Shown: in pieces, positions 37,407-61,172 of the stretch
How positions within the stretch are numbered: the stretch's first letter is position 1
Layout: each line of letters begins with the position of its first letter
Assembly (NCBI GenBank): GCA_017499595.2
Contig: CM039010.1
Span: 2,232,001-2,296,000 of the forward strand
From: Psilocybe cubensis
Taxonomy: Eukaryota
Direction of reading: 5' to 3'
DNA: 64,000 nucleotides
Notes under the pieces: generated by a model
Database searches by the model: none
The model's input: only the letters and a program-made list of their open reading frames with translations
What the model was told of the DNA's origin: nothing
Made by a program: the position numbers and the translations under genes

Positions 37407-37981
37407 AGAAGGAATGTTCTGGAACATCCGATGACAGCGCGTGAAGTGATGCTGCGCAGCTGTCATGTATCTTACCGACTATCACAAATCTGTCAATGTT
37501 TATTGTCAAGTTAGACAGGTCTCTGATGAACAGAGTGTCACGGGTCAATGTGGCACATGGTAACCTGTCAAAAGTGGATCCAACACTTTTGTTCTTTGAC
37601 ATCGTGGGTTATTGACTGTGATGTGAATCACATGGATATAGATTACTCTGGTTACGTGGCTCCGAGTAACCGCGACATGGGAATATTCACATGTCTAGAG
37701 TATAAATAGCTTACCTGGGTCCTTACCTAACAATCAAAAAATAGAATGATTGATTGTTGTGAATCTTAATTGGACAATTCATGATCCGGTCCATCAAAAA
37801 TGTTTCCACGGTACTAAGGAACTTTTCCCGAAGTACTAAGTAACTTTTCCCATGTACTAAATTAGATCCGGCCCTTCACAATCACATGCCGTTCGGAAGT
37901 TCACACGCCTACCTTATTTCCTACTAAGGTTAGACTTAGTTAGCTTAGGGTTGGGGTTAGGTTAGGGCTTAGGGTTTAGGG

Positions 37982-38050
37982 GGGGAGCGAGCACCGAGCG
38001 AAGCGAGGTGCGAGCGACTAATTTAAACTGTGAGTTAAATGGAAAGTAGC
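37982..38050 (-). mobile_element. 69-bp terminal fragment of the element
   Basis: GGGGAGCGAGCACC...GGAAAGTAGC, then TTTAGGG repeats. Confidence 0.9.
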
Positions 38051-38141
38051 GTTTAGGGTTTAGGGTTAGGGTTTAGGGTTTAGGGTTTAGGGTTTAGGGT
38101 TTAGGGTTTAGGGTTTAGGGTTTAGGGTTTAGGGTTTAGGG
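38051..38141 (+). repeat. Interstitial TTTAGGG tract
   Basis: About 13 units, one TTAGGG variant. Confidence 0.95.
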
Positions 38142-47673: not shown

Positions 47674-47773
47674 AGTGGCTGATGGATAATAGCAAAGTCG
47701 TTGGGTTTAGGGGGGGAGCGAGCACCGAGCGAAGCGAGGTGCGAGCGACTAGTTTAAACTGGGAGTTAAATGG

Positions 47774-47849
47774 AAAGTAGCCAGAGGGCTGTTGGGGGAT
47801 CCCAACAACCAGCCCTTTCGTCTTTATAGACTCTTCAGTGGCTATTCTT
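47774..47849 (-). ncRNA. Type I hammerhead ribozyme
   Basis: Same core and stems. Confidence 0.9.
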
Positions 47850-48510
47850 AGAAGGAATGTTCTAGACATCCGATGACAGCGCGTGAAGTGATGCTGCGCA
47901 GCTGTCATGTATCTTACCGACTATCACAAATCTGTCAATGTTTATTGTCAAGTTAGACAGGTCTCTGATGAACAGAGTGTCACGGGTCGATGTGGCACAT
48001 GGTAACCTGTCAAAAGTGGATCCAACACTTTTGTTCTTTGACATCGTGGGTTATTGACTGTGATGTGAATCACATGGATATAGATTACTCTGGTTACGTG
48101 GCTCCGAGTAACCGCGACATGGGAATATTCACATGTCTAGAGTATAAATAACTTACCTGGGTCCTTACCTAACAATCAAACAATAGAATGATTGATTGTT
48201 GTGAATCTTAATTGGACAGTTCATGATCCGGTCCATCAAAAATGTTTCCACGGTACTAAGGAACTTTTCCCGAAGTACTAAGTAACTTTTCCCATGTACT
48301 AAATTAGATCCGGCCCTTCACAATCACATGCCGTTCGGAAGTTCACACGCCTACCTTACTTCCTACTAAGGTTAGACTTAGTTAGCTTAGGGTTGGGGTT
48401 AGGTTAGGGTTTAGGGTTTAGGGTTTAGGGTTTAGGTTTAGGTTTAGGGGGGGAGCGAGCACCGAGCGAAGCGAGGTGCGAGCGACTAGTTTAAACTGGG
48501 AGTTAAATGG

Positions 48511-48586
48511 AAAGTAGCCAGAGGGCTGTTGGGGGATCCCAACAACCAGCCCTTTCGTCTTTATAGACTCTTCAGTGGCTATTCTT
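48511..48586 (-). ncRNA. Type I hammerhead ribozyme
   Basis: Same core and stems. Confidence 0.9.
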
Positions 48587-49296
48587 AGAAGGAATGTTCT
48601 AGACATCCGATGACAGCGCGTGAAGTGATGCTGCGCAGCTGTCATGTATCTTACCGACTATCACAAATCTGTCAATGTTTATTGTCAAGTTAGACAGGTC
48701 TCTGATGAACAGAGTGTCACGGGTCGATGTGGCACATGGTAACCTGTCAAAAGTGGATCCAACACTTTTGTTCTTTGACATCGTGGGTTATTGACTGTGA
48801 TGTGAATCACATGGATATAGATTACTCTGGTTACGTGGCTCCGAGTAACCGCGACATGGGAATATTCACATGTCTAGAGTATAAATAACTTACCTGGGTC
48901 CTTACCTAACAATCAAACAATAGAATGATTGATTGTTGTGAATCTTAATTGGACAGTTCATGATCCGGTCCATCAAAAATGTTTCCACGGTACTAAGGAA
49001 CTTTTCCCGAAGTACTAAGTAACTTTTCCCATGTACTAAATTAGATCCGGCCCTTCACAATCACATGCCGTTCGGAAGTTCACACGCCTACCTTACTTCC
49101 TACTAAGGTTAGACTTAGTTAGCTTAGGGTTGGGGTTAGGTTAGGGTTTAGGGTTTAGGGTTTAGGGTTTAGGTTTAGGTTTAGCTATTCAATCCAATGT
49201 GTTGCTTGTAAGTAGATGTTTGTTACTTTATAGCAAGGAATACTTACGGTTAGGGTTTTTTTCTAATGCTTTACGCCTTAAGCGCTAGTATTCTTT

Positions 49297-52200
49297 TCAT
49301 CGGTTGTAAGATTTGGATATTCTGCCAAATTCTGGATGTTCCCTCTCTTGTGAGATTGAACGTCTATGAAGTATTATCTCGTTATCACTTTCGATACTTA
49401 TCTGCTCAGCAGCTTCAACTAAAGCAGAATGATAAGTTTCATTAACGTTTTGAGTTTCGGGAACAACACCACCTTTTTCAGCGATGTCTTCATCCAGTTT
49501 ACGAAAGACTGTTTTCTTCCACACATTTGCAAGGTCGAAAAGATTAGTATTGCGTTTTCGCGATACTATCCAACGACTTCCGAGTAGTCCTATCTTCCTC
49601 AAATCCGGTACGAACTCAGTTTCTCCGTCCACGAGGATCTGTGTGAACAGCTCCGGGCGAACATCATCGAGGTCGTGAACGTAATTTGGATCTGGTTTGA
49701 TAAGGGGTCTGGACGAGTCTGCACTATACAAACCTTTCTCGGCATGTTCATACCATGCCGACCAGTACTCGGTAACAGTTTTTCCAAGTTCAGCAGCTGA
49801 AAACCAATTCCATACCTGATCAAATCTGGTTTTAAGTACAAGAATGGATTCGTCGTGCTCTGCGACTCGTAAAGCGAATCGCTTTTCCCAACGTTCTTGT
49901 ATATTCTTCTTACACCAAGATATGACTAGGTTTTCGGGATAACCGCGCATCAAATAGAGAGCGTTAAGGTCTCTAATTGCTCCGATGTAGATTTCCTTGG
50001 TACTACATAGCACGGCTAACCTGGATAACTCTCCAATGTAGACGCCACGTTTGACGTCCAAAGGATGATGTGATACCCATGGAACTCGTTCTCGGTTGTT
50101 TCCTGTCTTGACAAAAGGCTTCCAATGAAGTTTTCCAGACTCCTTGAATATGAAAGCATCGAGAAATTGACATCCCGACGAGGAAACAGCCCATTCGATA
50201 ACACAACCATCGAACTTTATTGTTTCTTTAATAAGATTAAGTGCAAGTGCTTCGGACTCGGCGTAAACAATTGCGAAACAATCGTCGATGTACCTTCCAT
50301 AGAAGGCCACGTTTGGGTGGTCTAAGATTTTTGACTTTATTTCAAAATGGGCTCCAAAGAGGTTAGCAAGGTCCGGAGAATCCGCGACGCCCATTGCGAG
50401 GCCATTTTTTTGTCTAAAATATCTAGACCCATGTTGTGTTATCAATTGCGTATTGCCAATCTCGATAGCACGTTTAAAGATGCCCAATTTAACCAAGTTA
50501 TTCTCTAACGAATTTGGATTAATATGGGCTAATGCAGTGTTTTCTTCCGAAGCGTTGAGTAACCATTCCTCGTACATACTACAAACGATTTCGATGCACA
50601 AGTCCAACGGAATATTGGGATAGAAAGCAACTACATCTCCAGTGACAAAATACCATTGTCTTTTGGAGTCTATACGCAATTGGCTTAATCTCGTAAAGAG
50701 ATCCTTCGTTCCGTGTATGATTGAAGGAGTCGATTTAATAATCGGCTTAAGCTCTTTTGATACAAACTTGGCTGCAGGATTAAATACTACAGAGTGACAC
50801 GGAATTATGGGCCTAAATCCAGTAGGTTTCTTGTGGATTTTAGGTATACCATGAAATTGAGGATACTTGAACGATGATCCGTCTTCCGGTACATTCGATA
50901 GAAAGAATCGAGACAACCCAAGTTCAAATAGAAACAGATGTTCATCTTCGACAGTACGTGCGAGCGTTTGCATCTGAATCATTTTGCTCTTCATAACTTC
51001 TTGCGCAACTTCGAATTCTAACTCTTCGTAATTACGTTCATCTTCAAGAAGATTGAGCTCATTCCTTAATATCCAGTCGCGTTCAGACACCGCGAGGCCA
51101 AGATTCTTATCTGTCATCGTAATAACATAGTTGTTATCGATAAGAAACTTACGGATCTTGTCCCTTTTAGGAGAGAACGCGTGCTTTCGCATCTCCGTAA
51201 GGGCTTCTTCCGGGATACTTGCGATCGTGCGTTGCACGTACCGACGTCCCATCGAAAGGCCAAGTTCCATATATTGCGGTAATACAGGAGGTTTCTCTTT
51301 CTTTTTTGAGCTTACTCCATAATCTGGATCAAAAGGTTTATTCATGCCTTCCTTAAACAAAAAATAGATACGCCATCTTATTCTTCGTTGGAAATCATTC
51401 CATGCTTGCATGATCAGACTTTTAGAAGGCAGAGTGAAAAACATATAATTAAGTCCGAGAGAGAGATCGTTTGCTACATCAACAGGGACAGAAACACCAG
51501 GACTACAATGTACACTACTACGATACTGGCCAGCCAACAAGAATGATATTGGAGTATGTAAGTGTACGAAAGAAACTGCGTCTGTTTTAGTCATGGTGAG
51601 TATATCGTCAGGAATAGAGTTGGGGAAGGCGGGTCTCACCGACGTAAAAGGTACTACATTAGACCGCGCATCTAGGCTCTTGCCTTTCCCTTTCCCTTTG
51701 GATCGTTCTTGACGGGAGCTCTCCCCTTCCCTTTCTTCTTGTTGTCGACCTTGTTGGAAGCCTTGGTTTGAGGCTTGCGTTGCGAAGGCGTCGACGACGA
51801 CTTGGGTTTCGAAGGGCCAGCTTTCTTGGCCTGAGGTTGAGGAGCCTTGGATGAATTCTGGCCAGACAAAGTCTGGGTAATTAGAGTAGTAATTAGTATC
51901 CAGAATTATGGGTGAAGGGTTACGAAAACTTGCCTTCTTGCCCACAGATCCAAGGTTGAGCTTCTTGAGACGTGCATTCAAGCCCTTATCAATAAGGGAT
52001 TGAATCGACGGACCTGGTTTGGTCGCGTCGGCCATCTCGACATCGGCTGTTGCCGCAGTCGTCCGCTTTTTCTCAATCTTAATTGCCAAAGCGCGGTGGC
52101 GCATGTTGACAATTTGTTTGATGTGAGAAAAGATCGCCGGCAGTATGGTTTGCAGCGCACTGCATTCGGCTTTCTTTTGCGGAGACACTACCCACTCTGC

Positions 52201-52827
52201 TATACGTCGAACTCCCTTGTTATCTGTAGAGAAAACAGGGAGCTTGTAGCTGGATTTGCGATCATCGTAAGTTGCCTTAACGATGAGGGCAGCAGCTTCG
52301 TAGCAAGAGTTGAGTGCGCATTTATCATCCCAAAAAGTCAGCTCGTCCTTTTTCGCCTGAATGGCGCCGTCGTTAATTGCCTTTTGGAAGGCGTCACGAG
52401 CGGTAGAGAACGTAGTGGAGACTCGAAGAGCCTCCGCTGACCCGGCATTCGCGAATTCCTTCGTAAGTTGGAACTCGGGTGCCTTCACCTTAAGGCGATT
52501 GGGCGTGTTGCCTGCGCTAACGGCAGATTCAAGGCGCTCGAGGCTAGCCTTGACTGTTTCCCTCTTATCGCACCACGATGCGAGGTTGAGGAGAAACTCC
52601 CTAAGGGCAGCACGATAGTCAAAAAAGACGCAGTCTATGACTTGGTCAACGGAGCGGCACTCAGCTATTTTTTTGATGACCACAGTGGCCAGCTCGTCGA
52701 TCAGAGCGTTATGGCGGCCTGCTTCATCGTTGACGCCGAAAACGGTGTTGTTGACGACGGCCTGGGTGAGTGCGTCCAGGGTGGGGGACATGGCACGAGA
52801 GAAAGCAGCAGAGTATTGAGATGACAT
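49297..52827 (-). CDS. Penelope-like RT polyprotein, 1176 aa (candidate intron 51873-51933)
   Basis: Two aa differences noticed versus copies 2 and 3 (FADAG to FANAG, EFVQ to EFIQ). Confidence 0.93.
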   Translation of the reverse strand: MSSQYSAAFSRAMSPTLDALTQAVVNNTVFGVNDEAGRHNALIDELATVVIKKIAECRSVDQVIDCVFFDYRAALREFLLNLASWCDKRETVKASLERLESAVSAGNTPNRLKVKAPEFQLTKEFANAGSAEALRVSTTFSTARDAFQKAINDGAIQAKKDELTFWDDKCALNSCYEAAALIVKATYDDRKSSYKLPVFSTDNKGVRRIAEWVVSPQKKAECSALQTILPAIFSHIKQIVNMRHRALAIKIEKKRTTAATADVEMADATKPGPSIQSLIDKGLNARLKKLNLGSVGKKASFRNPSPIILDTNYYSNYPDFVWPEFIQGSSTSGQESWPFETQVVVDAFATQASNQGFQQGRQQEEREGESSRQERSKGKGKGKSLDARSNVVPFTSVRPAFPNSIPDDILTMTKTDAVSFVHLHTPISFLLAGQYRSSVHCSPGVSVPVDVANDLSLGLNYMFFTLPSKSLIMQAWNDFQRRIRWRIYFLFKEGMNKPFDPDYGVSSKKKEKPPVLPQYMELGLSMGRRYVQRTIASIPEEALTEMRKHAFSPKRDKIRKFLIDNNYVITMTDKNLGLAVSERDWILRNELNLLEDERNYEELEFEVAQEVMKSKMIQMQTLARTVEDEHLFLFELGLSRFFLSNVPEDGSSFKYPQFHGIPKIHKKPTGFRPIIPCHSVVFNPAAKFVSKELKPIIKSTPSIIHGTKDLFTRLSQLRIDSKRQWYFVTGDVVAFYPNIPLDLCIEIVCSMYEEWLLNASEENTALAHINPNSLENNLVKLGIFKRAIEIGNTQLITQHGSRYFRQKNGLAMGVADSPDLANLFGAHFEIKSKILDHPNVAFYGRYIDDCFAIVYAESEALALNLIKETIKFDGCVIEWAVSSSGCQFLDAFIFKESGKLHWKPFVKTGNNRERVPWVSHHPLDVKRGVYIGELSRLAVLCSTKEIYIGAIRDLNALYLMRGYPENLVISWCKKNIQERWEKRFALRVAEHDESILVLKTRFDQVWNWFSAAELGKTVTEYWSAWYEHAEKGLYSADSSRPLIKPDPNYVHDLDDVRPELFTQILVDGETEFVPDLRKIGLLGSRWIVSRKRNTNLFDLANVWKKTVFRKLDEDIAEKGGVVPETQNVNETYHSALVEAAEQISIESDNEIILHRRSISQEREHPEFGRISKSYNR

Positions 52828-52938
52828 AGTGGCTGATGGATAATAGCAAAGTCGTTGGGTTTAGGGGGGGAGCGAGCACCGAGCGAAGCGAGGTGCGAGC
52901 GACTAGTTTAAACTGGGAGTTAAATGGAAAGTAGCCAG

Positions 52939-53422
52939 CGGCTCGTGATTTTTTACGGGCGTGGACCAGTGCAAGCAATGGGCGCTACCGTACAGGCAAA
53001 CGATCACTACATACCGCTCATGACAAAAGAGCAGGCTATTGCCTATTAAGTCCTTTACCAAGGGACACTCTCATGCCATTGGACATGGCAGGCTAATACC
53101 CTTTAAGCCCTTTACCAAGGGGCGCCACATCAGCCATTACAGCCACAGGTTCATTTCCGGCGACGAACTATTTGTCCATCCTTGTGTTAACTCCCTTTAC
53201 TAAGGGGAGGCCGGGTCACCCGCGTTTTAAGCGGTTCTGGACTTCGGGCCGTCCTCGTAAGCAGCGAGGCGCGGTTTAGATACCAGATGTGGGTTTCCCC
53301 ACTCCCAAGACTATATCTTAAGATCCGAAGACCCCACTACCACCTAGTCGTTGAACGCTTCCGTCGGCGTGACCGTTACGGATTCGCTGCTGATTATCCA
53401 TTCCAGCTTTCGCTGAATCTTG
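52939..53422. other. Unique foreign hairpin-rich insert of unknown origin
   Basis: No match seen elsewhere in the window; bounded by the element 5' end and a telomeric tract. Confidence 0.8.
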
Positions 53423-53460
53423 GGGTTTAGGGTTTAGGGTTTAGGGTTTAGGGTTTAGGG
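53423..53460 (+). repeat. Interstitial TTTAGGG tract
   Basis: About 5 units. Confidence 0.95.
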
Positions 53461-53524
53461 GGGGAGCGAGCACCGAGCGAAGCGAGGTGCGAGCGACTAG
53501 TTTAAACTGTGAGTTTGAAATAGA

Positions 53525-53600
53525 AAGAAGGCCAGAGGGCTGTTGGGGGATCCCAACAACCAGCCCTTTCGTCTTTATAGACTCTTCAGTGGCTATTCTT
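53525..53600 (-). ncRNA. Type I hammerhead ribozyme
   Basis: Same core; cleavage 53535/53534. Confidence 0.88.
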
Positions 53601-54304
53601 AGAAGGAATGTTCTAGACATCCGATGACAGCGCGTGAAGTGATGCTGCGCAGCTGTCATGTATCTTACCGACTATCACAAATCTGTCAATGTTTATTGTC
53701 AAGTTAGACAGGTCTCTGATGAACAGAGTGTCACGGGTCGATGTGGCACATGGTAACCTGTCAAAAGTGGATCCAACACTTTTGTTCTTTGACATCGTGG
53801 GTTATTGACTGTGATGTGAATCACATGGATATAGATTACTCTGGTTACGTGGCTCCGAGTAACCGCGACATGGGAATATTCACATGTCTAGAGTATAAAT
53901 AGCTTACCTGGGTCCTTACCTAACAATCAAACAATAGAATGATTGATTGTTGTGAATCTTAATTGGACAGTTCATGATCCGGTCCATCAAAAATGTTTCC
54001 ACGGTACTAAGGAACTTTTCCCGAAGTACTAAGTAACTTTTCCCATGTACTAAATTAGATCCGGCCCTTCACAATCACATGCCGTTCGGAAGTTCACACG
54101 CCTACCTTACTTCCTACTAAGGTTAGACTTAGTTAGCTTAGGGTTGGGGTTAGGTTAGGGTTTAGGGTTTAGGGTTTAGGGTTTAGGTTTAGCTATTTAA
54201 TCCAAAGTGTTGCTTGTAAGTAGATGTTTGTTACTTTATAGCAAGGAATACTTACGGTTAGGGTTTTTTTCTAATGCTTTACGCCTTACGCGCTAGTATT
54301 CTTT

Positions 54305-57300
54305 TCATCGGTTGTAAGATTTGGATATTCTGCCGAATTCTGGATGTTCCCTCTCTTGTGAGATTGAACGTCTATGAAGTATTATCTCGTTATCACTTTC
54401 GATACTTATCTGTTCAGCAGCTTCAACTAGAGCAGAATGATAAGTTTCATTAACGTTTTGAGTTTCGGGAACAACACCACCTTTTTCAGCGATGTTTTCA
54501 TCCAGTTTACGAAAGACTGTTTTCTTCCACACATTTGCAAGGTCGAAAAGATTAGTATTGCGCTTTCGCGATACTATCCAACGACTTCCGAGTAGTCCTA
54601 TCTTCCTCAAATCCGGTACGAACTCAGTTTCTCCGTCCACGAGGATCTGTGTGAACAGCTCCGGGCGAACATCATCGAGGTCGTGAACGTAATTTGGATC
54701 TGGTTTGATAAGGGGTCTGGACGAGTCTGCACTATACAGACCTTTCTCGGCATGTTCATACCATGCCGACCAGTACTCGGTAACAGTCTTTCCAAGTTCA
54801 GCCGCTGAAAACCAATTCCATACCTGATCAAATCTGGTTTTAAGTACAAGAATGGATTCGTCGTGCTCTGCGACTCGTAAAGCGAATCGCTTTTCCCAAC
54901 GTTCTTGTATATTCTTCTTACACCAAGACATGACTAGGTTTTCGGGATAACCGCGCATCAAATAGAGAGCGTTAAGGTCTCTAATTGCTCCGATGTAGAT
55001 TTCCTTGGTACTACATAGCACGGCTAACCTGGATAACTCTCCAATGTAGACGCCACGTTTGACGTCCAAAGGATGATGTGATACCCATGGAACTCGTTCT
55101 CGGTTGTTTCCTGTCTTGACAAATGGCTTCCAATGAAGTTTTCCAGACTCCTTGAATATGAAAGCATCGAGAAATTGACATCCCGACGAGGAAACAGCCC
55201 ATTCGATAACACAACCATCGAACTTTATTGTTTCTTTAATAAGATTAAGTGCAAGTGCTTCGGACTCGGCGTAAACAATTGCGAAACAATCGTCGATGTA
55301 CCTTCCATAGAAGGCCACGTTTGGGTGGTCTAAGATTTTTGACTTTATTTCAAAATGGGCTCCAAAGAGGTTAGCAAGGTCCGGAGAATCCGCGACGCCC
55401 ATTGCGAGGCCATTTTTTTGTCTAAAATATCTAGACCCATGTTGTGTTATCAATTGCGTATTGCCAATCTCGATAGCACGTTTAAAGATGCCCAATTTAA
55501 CCAAGTTATTCTCTAACGAATTTGGATTAATATGGGCTAATGCAGTGTTCTCTTCCGAAGCGTTGAGTAACCATTCCTCGTACATATTACAAACGATTTC
55601 GATGCACAAGTCCAACGGAATATTGGGATAGAAAGCAACTACATCCCCGGTGACAAAATACCATTGTCGTTTGGGGTCTATACGCAATTGGCTTAATCTC
55701 GTAAAGAGATCCTTCGTTCCGTGAATGATTGAAGGAGTCGATTTAATAATCGGCTTAAGCTCTTTTGATACAAACTTGGCTGCAGGATTAAATACTACAG
55801 AGTGACACGGAATTATGGGCCTAAATCCAGTAGGTTTCTTGTGGATTTTAGGTATACCATGAAATTGAGGATACTTGAACGATGATCCGTCTTCCGGTAC
55901 ATTCGATAGAAAGAATCGAGACAACCCAAGTTCAAATAGAAACAGATGTTCATCTTCGACGGTACGTGCGAGAGTTTGCATCTGAATCATTTTGCTCTTC
56001 ATAACTTCTTGCGCAACTTCGAATTCTAACTCTTCGTAGTTGCGTTCATCTTCAAGAAGATTGAGCTCATTCCTTAATATCCAGTCGCGTTCAGACACCG
56101 CGAGGCCAAGATTCTTATCTGTCATCGTAATAACATAGTTGTTATCGAAAAGAAACTTTTGGATCTTGTCCCTTTTAGGAGAGAACGCGTGCTTTCGCAT
56201 CTCTTTAAGGGCTTCTTCCGGGATACTTGCGATCGTTTTAATAACGTACCGACGTCCCATTGAAAGGCCAAGTTCCATAAATTGCGGTAACATTGGAGGT
56301 TTCTCTTTCTTTTTAGAGCTTACTCCATAGTCTGGATCGAAAGGTTTATTCATGCCTTCTTTAAACAAAAAATAGATACGCCATCTTATTCTTCGTTGAA
56401 AATCATTCCATGCTTGCATGATCAGATTTTTAGAAGGCAGTGTAAAAAACATATAATTGAGTCCAAGAGATAAATCATTTGCTACATCAACAGGGACCGA
56501 AACACCAGGACTACAGTGTACACTAGATCTATACTGGCCAGCCAATAAGAATGAAATCGGGGTATTGAGGTGTACAAAAGAAACTGCGTCTGTTTTAGTC
56601 ATGGTGAGTATATCGTCAGGAATAGAGTTGGGGAAGGCGGGTCTCACCGACGTAAATGATGCTACAGTAGACCGCGCGTCTAGGCTCTTGCCTTTCCCTT
56701 TCCCTTTGGATCGTTGTTCTTGACGGGAGCTCTCCCCTTCCCTTTCTTCTTGTTGTCGACCTTGTTGGAAGCCTTGGTTTGAGGCTTCCTCTGCGAAGGC
56801 GTCGACGACGACTTGGGTTTCGAAGGGCCAGCTTTCCTGGCCTGAGGTTGAGGAGCCTTGGACGAATTCTGGCCAGACAAAGTCTGGGTAATTAGAGTAA
56901 TAATTAGTGTCCAGAATTATGGGTGAAGGGTTACGAAAACTTGCCTTCTTGCCCACAGATCCAAGGTTGAGCTTTTTGAGACGTGCATTCAAGCCCTTAT
57001 CAATAAGGGATTGAATCGATGGACCTGGTTTGGTCGCATCGGCCATCTCGACATCGGCTGTTGCCGCAGTCGTCCGCTTTTTCTCAATCTTAATTGCCAA
57101 GGCGCGGTGGCGCATGTTGACAATCTGTTTGATATGAGAAAAGATCGCCGGCAGTATAGTTTGCAGCGCACTGCATTCGGCTTTCTTTTGCGGAGACACT
57201 ACCCACTCTGCTATACGTCGAACTCCCTTGTTGTCTGTAGAGAAAACAGGGAGCTTGTAGCTGGATTTGCGATCATCGTAAGTTGCCTTAACGATGAGGG

Positions 57301-57838
57301 CAGCAGCTTCGTAGCAAGAGTTGAGCGCGCATTTATCATCCCAAAAAGCCAGCTCGTCCTTTTTCGCCTGAACGGCGCCGTCGTTAATTGCCTTTTGGAA
57401 GGCATCACGAGCGGAAGAGAACGTAGTGGAGACTCGAAGAGCCTCCGCTGACCCGGCATCCGCGAATTCCTTCGTAAGTTGGAACTCGGGTGCCTTCACC
57501 TTAAGGCGATTGGGCGTGTTGCCTGCGCTAACGGCAGATTCAAGGCGCTCGAGGCTAGCCTTGACTGTTTCCCTCTTGTCGCACCACGATGCGAGGTTGA
57601 GGAGAAACTCCCTGAGGGCAGCACGATAGTCAAAAAAGACGCAGTCTATGACTTGGTCAACGGAGCGGCACTCAGCTATTTTTTTGATGACCACAGTGGC
57701 CAGCTCGTCGATAAGAGCGTTATGGCGGCCTGCTTCATCGTTGACGCCGAAGACAGTGTTGTTGACGACGGCCTGGGTGAGTGCGTCCAGGGTAGGGGAC
57801 ATGGCACGAGAGAATGCAGCAGAGTATTGGGATGACAT
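54305..57838 (-). CDS. Penelope-like RT polyprotein, 1177 aa (candidate intron 56884-56944)
   Basis: Same RT motifs. Confidence 0.93.
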   Translation of the reverse strand: MSSQYSAAFSRAMSPTLDALTQAVVNNTVFGVNDEAGRHNALIDELATVVIKKIAECRSVDQVIDCVFFDYRAALREFLLNLASWCDKRETVKASLERLESAVSAGNTPNRLKVKAPEFQLTKEFADAGSAEALRVSTTFSSARDAFQKAINDGAVQAKKDELAFWDDKCALNSCYEAAALIVKATYDDRKSSYKLPVFSTDNKGVRRIAEWVVSPQKKAECSALQTILPAIFSHIKQIVNMRHRALAIKIEKKRTTAATADVEMADATKPGPSIQSLIDKGLNARLKKLNLGSVGKKASFRNPSPIILDTNYYSNYPDFVWPEFVQGSSTSGQESWPFETQVVVDAFAEEASNQGFQQGRQQEEREGESSRQEQRSKGKGKGKSLDARSTVASFTSVRPAFPNSIPDDILTMTKTDAVSFVHLNTPISFLLAGQYRSSVHCSPGVSVPVDVANDLSLGLNYMFFTLPSKNLIMQAWNDFQRRIRWRIYFLFKEGMNKPFDPDYGVSSKKKEKPPMLPQFMELGLSMGRRYVIKTIASIPEEALKEMRKHAFSPKRDKIQKFLFDNNYVITMTDKNLGLAVSERDWILRNELNLLEDERNYEELEFEVAQEVMKSKMIQMQTLARTVEDEHLFLFELGLSRFFLSNVPEDGSSFKYPQFHGIPKIHKKPTGFRPIIPCHSVVFNPAAKFVSKELKPIIKSTPSIIHGTKDLFTRLSQLRIDPKRQWYFVTGDVVAFYPNIPLDLCIEIVCNMYEEWLLNASEENTALAHINPNSLENNLVKLGIFKRAIEIGNTQLITQHGSRYFRQKNGLAMGVADSPDLANLFGAHFEIKSKILDHPNVAFYGRYIDDCFAIVYAESEALALNLIKETIKFDGCVIEWAVSSSGCQFLDAFIFKESGKLHWKPFVKTGNNRERVPWVSHHPLDVKRGVYIGELSRLAVLCSTKEIYIGAIRDLNALYLMRGYPENLVMSWCKKNIQERWEKRFALRVAEHDESILVLKTRFDQVWNWFSAAELGKTVTEYWSAWYEHAEKGLYSADSSRPLIKPDPNYVHDLDDVRPELFTQILVDGETEFVPDLRKIGLLGSRWIVSRKRNTNLFDLANVWKKTVFRKLDENIAEKGGVVPETQNVNETYHSALVEAAEQISIESDNEIILHRRSISQEREHPEFGRISKSYNR

Positions 57839-57941
57839 GGTAACTGATGGGTGATAGCAAAGTCGTTGGGTTTAGGGGGGGAGCGAGCACCGAGCGAAGC
57901 GAGGTGCGAGCGACTAGTTTAAACTGTGAGTTTGAAATAGA

Positions 57942-58017
57942 AAGAAGGCCAGAGGGCTGTTGGGGGATCCCAACAACCAGCCCTTTCGTCTTTATAGACT
58001 CTTCAGTGGCTATTCTT
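57942..58017 (-). ncRNA. Type I hammerhead ribozyme
   Basis: Same core; cleavage 57952/57951. Confidence 0.88.
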
Positions 58018-58609
58018 AGAAGGAATGTTCTAGACATCCGATGACAGCGCGTGAAGTGATGCTGCGCAGCTGTCATGTATCTTACCGACTATCACAAATC
58101 TGTCAATGTTTATTGTCAAGTTAGACAGGTCTCTGATGAACAGAGTGTCACGGGTCGATGTGGCACATGGTAACCTGTCAAAAGTGGATCCAACACTTTT
58201 GTTCTTTGACATCGTGGGTTATTGACTGTGATGTGAATCACATGGATATAGATTACTCTGGTTACGTGGCTCCGAGTAACCGCGACATGGGAATATTCAC
58301 ATGTCTAGAGTATAAATAGCTTACCTGGGTCCTTACCTAACAATCAAACAATAGAATGATTGATTGTTGTGAATCTTAATTGGACAGTTCATGATCCGGT
58401 CCATCAAAAATGTTTCCACGGTACTAAGGAACTTTTCCCGAAGTACTAAGTAACTTTTCCCATGTACTAAATTAGATCCGGCCCTTCACAATCACATGCC
58501 GTTCGGAAGTTCACACGCCTACCTTACTTCCTACTAAGGTTAGACTTAGTTAGCTTAGGGTTGGGGTTAGGTTAGGGTTTAGGGTTTAGGGTTTAGGGTT
58601 TAGGTTTAG

Positions 58610-58662
58610 GGTTAGGGTTTTTTTTTTTTTAGGGTTTAGGGTTTAGGGTTTAGGGTTTAGGG
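58610..58662 (+). repeat. Telomeric tract containing a T13 run
   Basis: GGGTTAGGG-T13-AGGG(TTTAGGG)n. Confidence 0.9.
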
Positions 58663-61110: not shown

Positions 61111-61172
61111 GGGTTAGGGTTTAGGGTTTAGGGGGGGTTTAGGGTTTAGGGTTTAGGGTTTAGGGTTTAGGG
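61111..61172 (+). repeat. Telomeric tract with an internal G7 variant
   Basis: TTTA-GGGGGGG-TTTAGGG at 61127-61144. Confidence 0.93.

What the first reader, a model, noticed from the sequence alone, without database searches (positions are those of the whole stretch)
52921..52945. Copy 4 ends at the predicted hammerhead scissile bond
Homology with the other copies ends at ...GTAGCCA(G), 52937-52938. The predicted cleavage position, projected from 47783 at +5154, is 52937/52938. A cDNA ending here is what RT run-off on a ribozyme-cleaved RNA would give, so this is genomic evidence that the ribozyme cuts in vivo (inference).
Basis: partly seen in the sequence, partly recalled or inferred. Interest (0 to 1): 0.75.

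Follow-up and report, generated by a model that had tools for sequence, protein, structure and literature searches.

The report
Group I intron beside telomeric hammerhead
The break in copy 4 of this mushroom telomere retroelement is real, but it abuts a piece of a second ribozyme, a group I intron, so it may be an intron border, not the end of a copy made from hammerhead-cut RNA.

Summary
Copy 4 of a Coprina-type, endonuclease-less Penelope-like element (99% identical to a Psilocybe cubensis RT protein) loses homology at 52938/52939. That is one base past the predicted hammerhead scissile bond (52937|52938), so C17 is retained.

What follows is not random sequence. It is 481 nt unique in the window, in the element's sense orientation, with a group I intron core (Rfam RF00028, E about 1e-6, below gathering score). 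It ends ...CG just before C17 and is capped by five telomere repeats.

In metagenome relatives, about 1.07-kb group I introns sit as precise insertions in the same leader, 4 and 48 nt after the scissile bond. Their boundaries are U|...CG|C, their guide sequences match each site, and nearly identical intron-less copies exist.

My best reading (0.45): copy 4 was copied from RNA carrying such an intron between U16.1 and C17 and was truncated inside it. The main rival (0.3): run-off on hammerhead-cut RNA followed by a template jump onto free intron RNA.

A separate leader-only insertion (37979-38050) stops 2 nt short of the scissile bond. It is the cleaner sign of cleavage or RT arrest. No read-level check was possible.

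The parts
48448..52938 (-). Copy 4 (my A6) of the Coprina-type element. In RNA sense it runs C17, leader, 5'UTR, ORF, 3'UTR, 3' pLTR module.
   Evidence: blastn of the 5154-nt unit against the window: 47780-52933 is 99.96% identical and 52855-52938 matches the leader; alignment.
49297..52827 (-). ORF of 1176 aa: reverse transcriptase with a DKN motif and YIDD, and no endonuclease domain detected.
   Evidence: Best hit is a P. cubensis RT-domain protein at 99% identity, among 319 hits. My Pfam scan gave 0 families at E<=0.1.
52864..52937 (-). Leader L of copy 4, from N1.1 (52937) to the C-run that precedes one telomere-like unit.
52938..52938 (-). Base equal to hammerhead C17; the last base shared with the other copies.
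52939..53419 (-). X: 481 nt unique in the window. It is a 5'-truncated group I intron-like RNA. Its core (P4-P9) lies at 53287-53419, a further 348 nt follow, and it ends ...GAGCCG.
   Evidence: RF00028 at 36.4 bits, E 6e-6 and at 32.5 bits, E 1.4e-6, flagged 5'-truncated; the gathering score is 50. No other copy in the window. Fold z-score -3.2.
53420..53459 (+). Five TTTAGGG repeats capping X, followed by the next element.
53460..58615 (-). Next full element (A7), from a 97%-identical subfamily, with an intact hammerhead at 53535|53534.
47778..47844 (-). Reference type I hammerhead (5' pLTR of copy 3), with the scissile bond between 47784 (C17) and 47783 (N1.1).
   Evidence: descriptor results; sub-threshold RAGATH-1 hammerhead hits.
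37979..38050 (-). Leader-only insertion (A3). It starts at the C-run and ends at ...GTAGC, 2 nt short of N1.1.
38051..38141 (+). 13.7 telomere repeats capping the leader-only insertion.

Best explanation
Copy 4 does not end at the hammerhead. Its template RNA carried a group I intron lodged between U16.1 and C17 of the hammerhead in the 5' pseudo-LTR. The intron either came from an intron-bearing master copy or entered by reverse splicing of a free intron into the element RNA. The element's own RT, primed on the G-rich chromosome end, copied 3' pLTR, ORF, leader and C17 and continued into the intron. Synthesis, or later erosion, stopped inside the intron near P3, and telomerase capped the end with five repeats before the next element was added.

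Shown: the break position, the group I core, the sense orientation, the CG|C boundary, and precise intron insertions with site-matched guide sequences in relatives.

Inferred: that the missing 5' exon was the hammerhead up to U16.1, that the intron splices, and the order of events.
For: 1. X has a group I core on the element's sense strand.

2. Of the 81 sequences scanned with a P7/P7' motif pattern (80 loci plus the window), only the window, L026 and L018 match, and all three match on the sense strand. Rfam gives 34.2 and 31.6 bits for L026 and L018. Five loci were searched that way; L064, L014 and L021 gave no group I hit.

3. L026:444-1514 (1071 nt) and L018:749-1821 (1073 nt) are precise insertions relative to intron-less L064. 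L064 is 98% identical to L026, and its flanks of 50 and 23 nt are 100% identical to those of L018. Boundaries are U|...G|C, and the sites lie 4 and 48 nt after the scissile bond.

4. At the aligned position just 5' of P2, the L026 intron reads GGUUAA, complementary to its 5' exon UUAACU. The L018 intron reads GGCGCA against UUCGCU. Both start with a G.U pair, so the guide sequence changes with the site (pairing read by me).

5. The RNAalifold consensus of the two introns recovers P3, P4-P6, P8 and P9. It has 95 pairs, 17 with both sides changed and none broken.

6. All four intron 3' ends (window, L026, L018, L021) read CG|C. The window site would be CCCU|C, which follows the CU|C rule of the other two.

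7. This reading accounts for C17 without any extra assumption.
Against: - The intron's 5' half and its 5' exon are absent from the window, so the insertion site is inferred from one boundary only.
- None of the 12 intact hammerhead-leader junctions in the window carries an intron.
- Copy 4 differs from intron-less copy 3 at only 2 of 5154 positions, so an intron-bearing master must be very recent, or the intron entered at the RNA level.
- All Rfam scores are below the gathering score of 50.
- X shares only the core and short motifs with the metagenome introns.
- A site one base from the scissile bond is a coincidence under this reading. I put it at about 1 in 7, counting the CUC sites I read in the hammerhead 3' end plus leader.
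- The junction was not verified in reads.
Confidence: 0.45

Rival explanations
1. The 5' hammerhead cut the template RNA. The RT ran off at N1.1, added one untemplated base, and jumped to the 3' end of a free excised group I intron RNA. It copied part of that RNA, and telomerase then capped the end.
For: The break lies within one base of the scissile bond, about 1e-3 by chance. X ends in G, as an excised intron does. Overlap at the junction is at most 1 nt, as expected for end-to-end template jumps (established for non-LTR and group II RTs; recalled, not tested for this RT). A second end close to the same bond exists: the leader-only insertion stops 2 nt short of N1.1 and is capped by 13.7 repeats. 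A 13-T run inside a telomere tract at 58618-58630 could be an aborted jump onto a poly(A) tail.
Against: C17 is not part of the 3' cleavage product, so the retained base must be an untemplated G that happens to match (1 in 4). The same CG|C boundary occurs at true intron-exon junctions in relatives. The model needs a reason why the acceptor RNA is a group I intron. In 27 metagenome loci with a strict hammerhead, no leader start was found that lacked hammerhead sequence in front: the 3 extra leader starts found, in L006, L013 and L046, all have it. Published work on an anole PLE found no RNA-seq reads ending at the hammerhead site (PMC11167929, passages read).
Confidence: 0.3
2. The RT was arrested at the base of helix III of an uncleaved, folded hammerhead, after copying C17. 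It then switched template to X RNA, or, for the leader-only insertion, simply dissociated.
For: C17 is retained, and the stop lies exactly at the 3' foot of a stable helix III (fold). The leader-only end falls within helix I.
Against: The RT read through the same hammerhead in 11 of 13 traversals in this window (the eight complete additions A1-A8). It also gives no reason for a group I acceptor or for the shared CG|C boundary.
Confidence: 0.1
3. Assembly artefact, or a DNA-level rearrangement (end joining or capture of a foreign fragment) unrelated to either ribozyme.
For: No read-level check was possible. The region is a long tandem array, which is hard to assemble.
Against: Collapse of repeats joins homologous sequence; it does not create a unique 481-nt stretch with a clean boundary. 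The orientation, the CG|C boundary and the position near the scissile bond would all have to be coincidences.
Confidence: 0.08

Closest known systems
[quoted passage not shown] 2017, both known to me only as cited in PMC8557442 and PMC6431247, passages read; Cervera and De la Pena 2014, PMC4209133, passages read)
   Same: Telomeric head-to-tail arrays with the sense strand equal to the C-rich strand. A single RT ORF with a DKN motif. Pseudo-LTRs. A type I hammerhead with a large helix III, followed by a short leader and CCCTAAA units.
   Different: Here a group I intron-like RNA abuts the hammerhead. In the passages I read, no group I intron is reported in any PLE. I could not read the two primary papers.
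Nuclear group I introns of rDNA and their proposed RNA-level mobility by reverse splicing (review PMC3679873, abstract and passages read)
   Same: A P3-P9 core, 5' exon ending in U paired to a guide sequence, a terminal G, and precise intron-plus and intron-minus forms.
   Different: That review states that all known nuclear group I introns interrupt rRNA genes, and that the reverse transcription and integration step has never been shown. Here the host is a retroelement whose RNA is reverse transcribed onto chromosome ends as part of its normal cycle.
R2 and other non-LTR elements whose 5' end is set by an HDV-like self-cleaving ribozyme (Eickbush and Eickbush 2010; Ruminski et al. 2011; seen only in the reference list and discussion of PMC13725137)
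   Same: The idea that a ribozyme cut defines the RNA 5' end, and so the 5' junction of new copies, and may help translation.
   Different: A different ribozyme class. In this window most copies read through the hammerhead, and the one exact case is confounded by the intron.
Chimeric retrocopies made by template switching, such as U6-L1 chimeras (recalled, no paper read)
   Same: A cellular RNA is joined to the 5' side of a retroelement copy in the same orientation.
   Different: Those junctions fall at variable positions in L1 and do not share an intron-type boundary.

Membership tests
Type I hammerhead ribozyme | Core CUGANGA ... GAAA with H17, three helices, helix I open | tested here: met
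   The descriptor finds 12 motifs in the window, all on the minus strand. 27 of 80 loci have a sense motif and 0 of 80 an antisense one. Over 377,051 nt there are 43 sense motifs, 0 antisense, 0 in reversed sequence, and 0 in each of 20 shuffles.
Type I hammerhead ribozyme | Helices kept by compensatory change | tested here: met
   The table shows that helices I, II and III differ in sequence between lineages yet still pair (read by eye, not scored). Four helix III variants occur within the window.
Type I hammerhead ribozyme | Reaches the Rfam curated score | tested here: not met
   No hammerhead at gathering threshold. The best match is RAGATH-1 hammerhead at 29.1 bits against 56.3.
Type I hammerhead ribozyme | Self-cleavage | not testable with these tools
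   A Serpula lacrymans PLE hammerhead was reported to cleave in vitro (PMC4209133, figure legend read).
Coprina-type EN(-) Penelope-like element | PLE-type RT with DKN and YIDD motifs, and no endonuclease | tested here: met
   The motifs are present in the translation and invariant in alignment A1. No endonuclease family was detected, but the Pfam scan detected nothing at all. No phylogeny was made.
Coprina-type EN(-) Penelope-like element | Telomeric location, sense strand on the C-rich strand, telomere-complement tail after the hammerhead | tested here: met
   Window junctions. 40 of 80 loci carry C-strand repeats on the sense strand and 0 of 80 carry G-strand repeats there. The hammerhead-leader-CCCTAA(A) order is seen.
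Group I intron (window X) | Catalytic core P3-P9 with P7 | tested here: inconclusive
   P4-P9 align to RF00028 at 32.5-36.4 bits, E about 1e-6, below the gathering score of 50. The 5' strand of P3 is not convincing, and the match is flagged 5'-truncated.
Group I intron (window X) | P1: guide sequence paired to a 5' exon ending in U | not testable with these tools
   The 5' part of X is replaced by telomere repeats. U16.1 as the last exon base is inferred.
Group I intron (window X) | Terminal G at the 3' boundary | tested here: met
   X ends ...CG before C17, the same CG|C as in L026, L018 and L021.
Group I intron (loci L026, L018) | Core, U|...G boundaries, guide sequence matching the exon, intron-less allele | tested here: met
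   Rfam scores (34.2 and 31.6 bits) are below gathering. Splicing activity was not tested.
RT run-off at a ribozyme-made 5' end | cDNA ends at N1.1 and lacks N17 | tested here: not met
   Copy 4 retains C17. The leader-only copy stops 2 nt short of N1.1.

The most novel reading that the evidence does not exclude
Self-splicing group I introns live in telomeric Penelope-like retroelements, outside rDNA. In P. cubensis one sits inside the hammerhead itself (U16.1|C17), so one ribozyme must splice out before the other is whole. The host element's RT and its attachment to chromosome ends supply the reverse transcription and integration steps that RNA-level group I intron mobility has always lacked. 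That would explain related introns at three different CU|C sites with retargeted guide sequences.
Probability: 0.45. Interest if true: 0.9.

Novelty: new variant of a known kind. Interest (0 to 1): 0.75.

Why it matters
The hammerheads of Penelope-like elements are known, but whether they cut in vivo is open. A 2024 in vitro study found cleavage dispensable and saw no RNA ends at the site (PMC11167929, passages read). This window gives at most one clean genomic footprint of a cut or an RT stop, the leader-only insertion.

The larger point is the group I intron. A review states that nuclear group I introns are known only in rRNA genes, and that the reverse-splicing route of spread lacks evidence for its reverse transcription and integration steps (PMC3679873, passages read). 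Introns that sit in retroelement RNA, with intron-plus and intron-minus copies that are otherwise 98-100% identical and guide sequences matched to different sites, would make that route directly testable.

My three literature searches returned no such report among the listed titles and abstract starts. They combined 'group I intron' with 'Penelope-like' (22 papers held both terms), with telomere, reverse-transcription, template-switch and rDNA terms, and with reverse splicing, retrotransposon and nuclear. Supplements and the two primary Athena/Coprina papers were not seen.

Tried and rejected
The run shares are used only as a hint.
- Genome: none is held.
- Papers: the two primary Athena/Coprina papers are not held.
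- Descriptor: the first version had a lazy-match bug and found nothing. It was fixed.
- More ends at the scissile bond: in the 27 loci with a strict hammerhead I found none. The 3 extra leader starts, in L006, L013 and L046, all have hammerhead sequence in front. I also read all the C-strand telomere tracts in 40 loci. The junctions there are random truncations or pLTR starts. These contigs are mostly one element long, so the test is weak.
- Captured cellular RNAs: Rfam at gathering score over the 20 longest loci gave 0 matches.
- Origin of X: it has no match in the window's rDNA or elsewhere in the window.
- ORFs in the metagenome introns: only frames expected of 64-66% GC sequence, with nothing conserved.
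- Ideas dropped: (a) Hammerhead-catalysed ligation of X to the leader, because X ends G-C where that reaction would need U16.1-C17. (b) A lariat-capping (GIR1-type) role, because the core lies 348 nt from the junction and RF00028 was the only ribozyme family that matched X. (c) A group I intron inserted with both exons present in this window, because its 5' side is telomere repeats.
- Earlier scan notes: nothing on this genome.

Full report
**Setting.** The window starts in single-copy genes and then holds 2.5 rDNA units on the + strand. The last LSU gene is broken near 31934 and healed by TTTAGGG repeats. From there to the window's end runs a head-to-tail array of one retroelement. Its 1176-aa ORF lies on the minus strand and is 99% identical to a Psilocybe cubensis RT-domain protein. 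It carries the DKN and YIDD motifs, and no endonuclease family was detected, although my Pfam scan found nothing at all. Telomere repeats read TTTAGGG on the + strand. The + strand is therefore the strand extended by reverse transcription, and each element's RNA 5' end points right, towards the chromosome end.

**Anatomy of the element.** In RNA sense, a 737-nt module (pseudo-LTR) holds these parts in order:
- a degenerate CCCTAAA tract;
- about 530 nt of other sequence;
- a type I hammerhead;
- a 74-nt leader ending in a C-run.

The module is followed either by CCCTAAA units or, upstream of the ORF, by one such unit and a 36-nt UTR. A full unit is module-ORF-module, and three copies repeat at 5154 nt. 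This matches the published Coprina/Athena design, a hammerhead followed by reverse-complement telomere repeats (PMC6431247 and PMC8557442, passages read).

**The hammerhead is solid.** A strict descriptor finds 12 motifs in the window, all in sense, and a sense motif in 27 of 80 related metagenome loci. There were none on the antisense strand, none in reversed sequence and none in 20 shuffles over 377 kb. All three helices differ between lineages yet still pair. Rfam's curated thresholds are not reached.

**The observation.** Copy 4 matches the other copies through ...GTAGCCAG, to 52938, and then diverges completely. The scissile bond projects to 52937|52938. The break is therefore one base beyond it, and C17 is kept.

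**How the other additions end.** I count eight complete additions in the array:
- two are truncated at arbitrary points and capped by repeats (32784 and 61110);
- four run through the 5' module into its telomere-like tract;
- copy 4 ends as described above;
- a leader-only insertion (37979-38050) stops 2 nt short of N1.1 and is capped by 13.7 repeats.

Two of four non-full-length ends within 3 nt of a scissile bond is far beyond chance, about 4e-5 by my estimate.

**What lies beyond the break.** Positions 52939-53419 are unique in the window. On the element's sense strand they carry a group I intron core: RF00028 at 36.4 and 32.5 bits, E 6e-6 and 1.4e-6, below the gathering score of 50 and flagged 5'-truncated. 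The stretch ends ...GAGCCG directly before C17. On its 5' side it is capped by five telomere repeats, and the next element follows.

**Relatives.** A weak nhmmer match led me to loci L026 and L018. Rfam finds group I cores there on the sense strand, between the hammerhead and the ORF, at 34.2 and 31.6 bits. A core-motif scan finds such cores in only these two loci and the window, out of 81 sequences.

Comparison with L064 shows that both are precise insertions:
- L026:444-1514 sits 4 nt after the scissile bond. L064 lacks it and is 98% identical to L026.
- L018:749-1821 sits 48 nt after the scissile bond. Its flanks are 100% identical to L064 over 50 and 23 nt.
- Each has a 5' exon ending in U and an intron ending in G, and the next base is C.
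- L021 begins inside the same intron as L018.

The two introns are only 80-86% alike where they align. Even so, their consensus fold recovers P3, P4-P6, P8 and P9, with 17 of 95 pairs changed on both sides and none broken. Just 5' of P2, at aligned positions, one intron reads GGUUAA and the other GGCGCA. Each is complementary to its own 5' exon, starting with G.U (my reading). I take these to be genuine group I introns with retargeted guide sequences. All four intron ends, the window's included, read CG|C.

**Consequences for the finding.** The window's break has the form of a group I 3' splice site placed between U16.1 and C17. Under that reading, copy 4's cDNA did not stop there; it ran on into an intron and was truncated later. 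The coincidence with the scissile bond then shrinks to the choice of one CU|C site among about seven in the hammerhead 3' end plus leader. That is the zone where the relatives' introns also sit.

It must, however, explain C17 as a matching untemplated base. RT arrest at helix III explains C17 but does not explain the intron.

I put the resident-intron reading at 0.45, run-off plus jump at 0.3, arrest at 0.1, and artefact or other rearrangement at about 0.1. The leader-only insertion is the better footprint of an RNA end or RT stop at the hammerhead. It could be the copied 3' cleavage product, which is leader plus telomere-complement tail.

**A note on mechanism.** Every addition begins at the leader's C-run, so priming uses the tail downstream of the 3' hammerhead. 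A productive template must therefore keep that hammerhead uncut. Cleavage may serve expression rather than transposition, as proposed for other ribozymes in UTRs (PMC13725137, passages read). This is inference.

**Limits.**
- There is no read-level confirmation.
- The intron's 5' half is missing in the window.
- All group I Rfam scores are sub-threshold.
- The metagenome loci are unnamed contigs, mostly one element long.
- Splicing and cleavage are untested.
- The two primary Athena/Coprina papers and all supplements were not seen.

Noticed in passing
L026:444-1514, L018:749-1821, L021:1-about 100, compared with L064:383-399 and 951-967: Group I introns of about 1.07 kb are precisely inserted at two different CU|C sites in the leader of Coprina elements. 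Intron-less copies are 98-100% identical in the flanks, and each intron's guide sequence matches its own site.
   Followed up: yes
window 58618-58630: A run of 13 T lies inside a telomere-repeat tract between two elements. It may be an aborted copy of a poly(A) tail, or telomerase or replication slippage.
   Followed up: no
window 61131-61137: A G7 run interrupts the telomere repeats that cap a truncated ORF. It looks like an aborted start on the leader's C-run.
   Followed up: no
window 31934: The last rDNA unit is broken inside the LSU gene, healed by about three TTTAGGG repeats, and then extended by retroelements. This telomere therefore sits directly on the rDNA.
   Followed up: partly
window 16040-16152 and 25015-25127: The rDNA spacer holds three tandem 37-mers that each begin with CCCTAAACCCTAAG, a telomere-like motif on the C-rich strand.
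   Followed up: no
window leaders such as 47710-47783, and leaders of many loci: A GC-rich hairpin, often closed by a UUCG loop, lies just before the telomere-complement tail in distant lineages. The layout resembles a template-boundary helix next to a template.
   Followed up: no
window 8294-8640: The first SSU gene lacks about its first 300 nt and abuts AT-rich unique sequence. The assembled rDNA array is only 2.5 units long and may be collapsed.
   Followed up: partly
L026 about 1257 and the aligned place in L018: A conserved GGTAAGTCCC, which looks like a spliceosomal 5' splice site, is followed by a 200-nt block conserved at 86% inside the group I introns.
   Followed up: no
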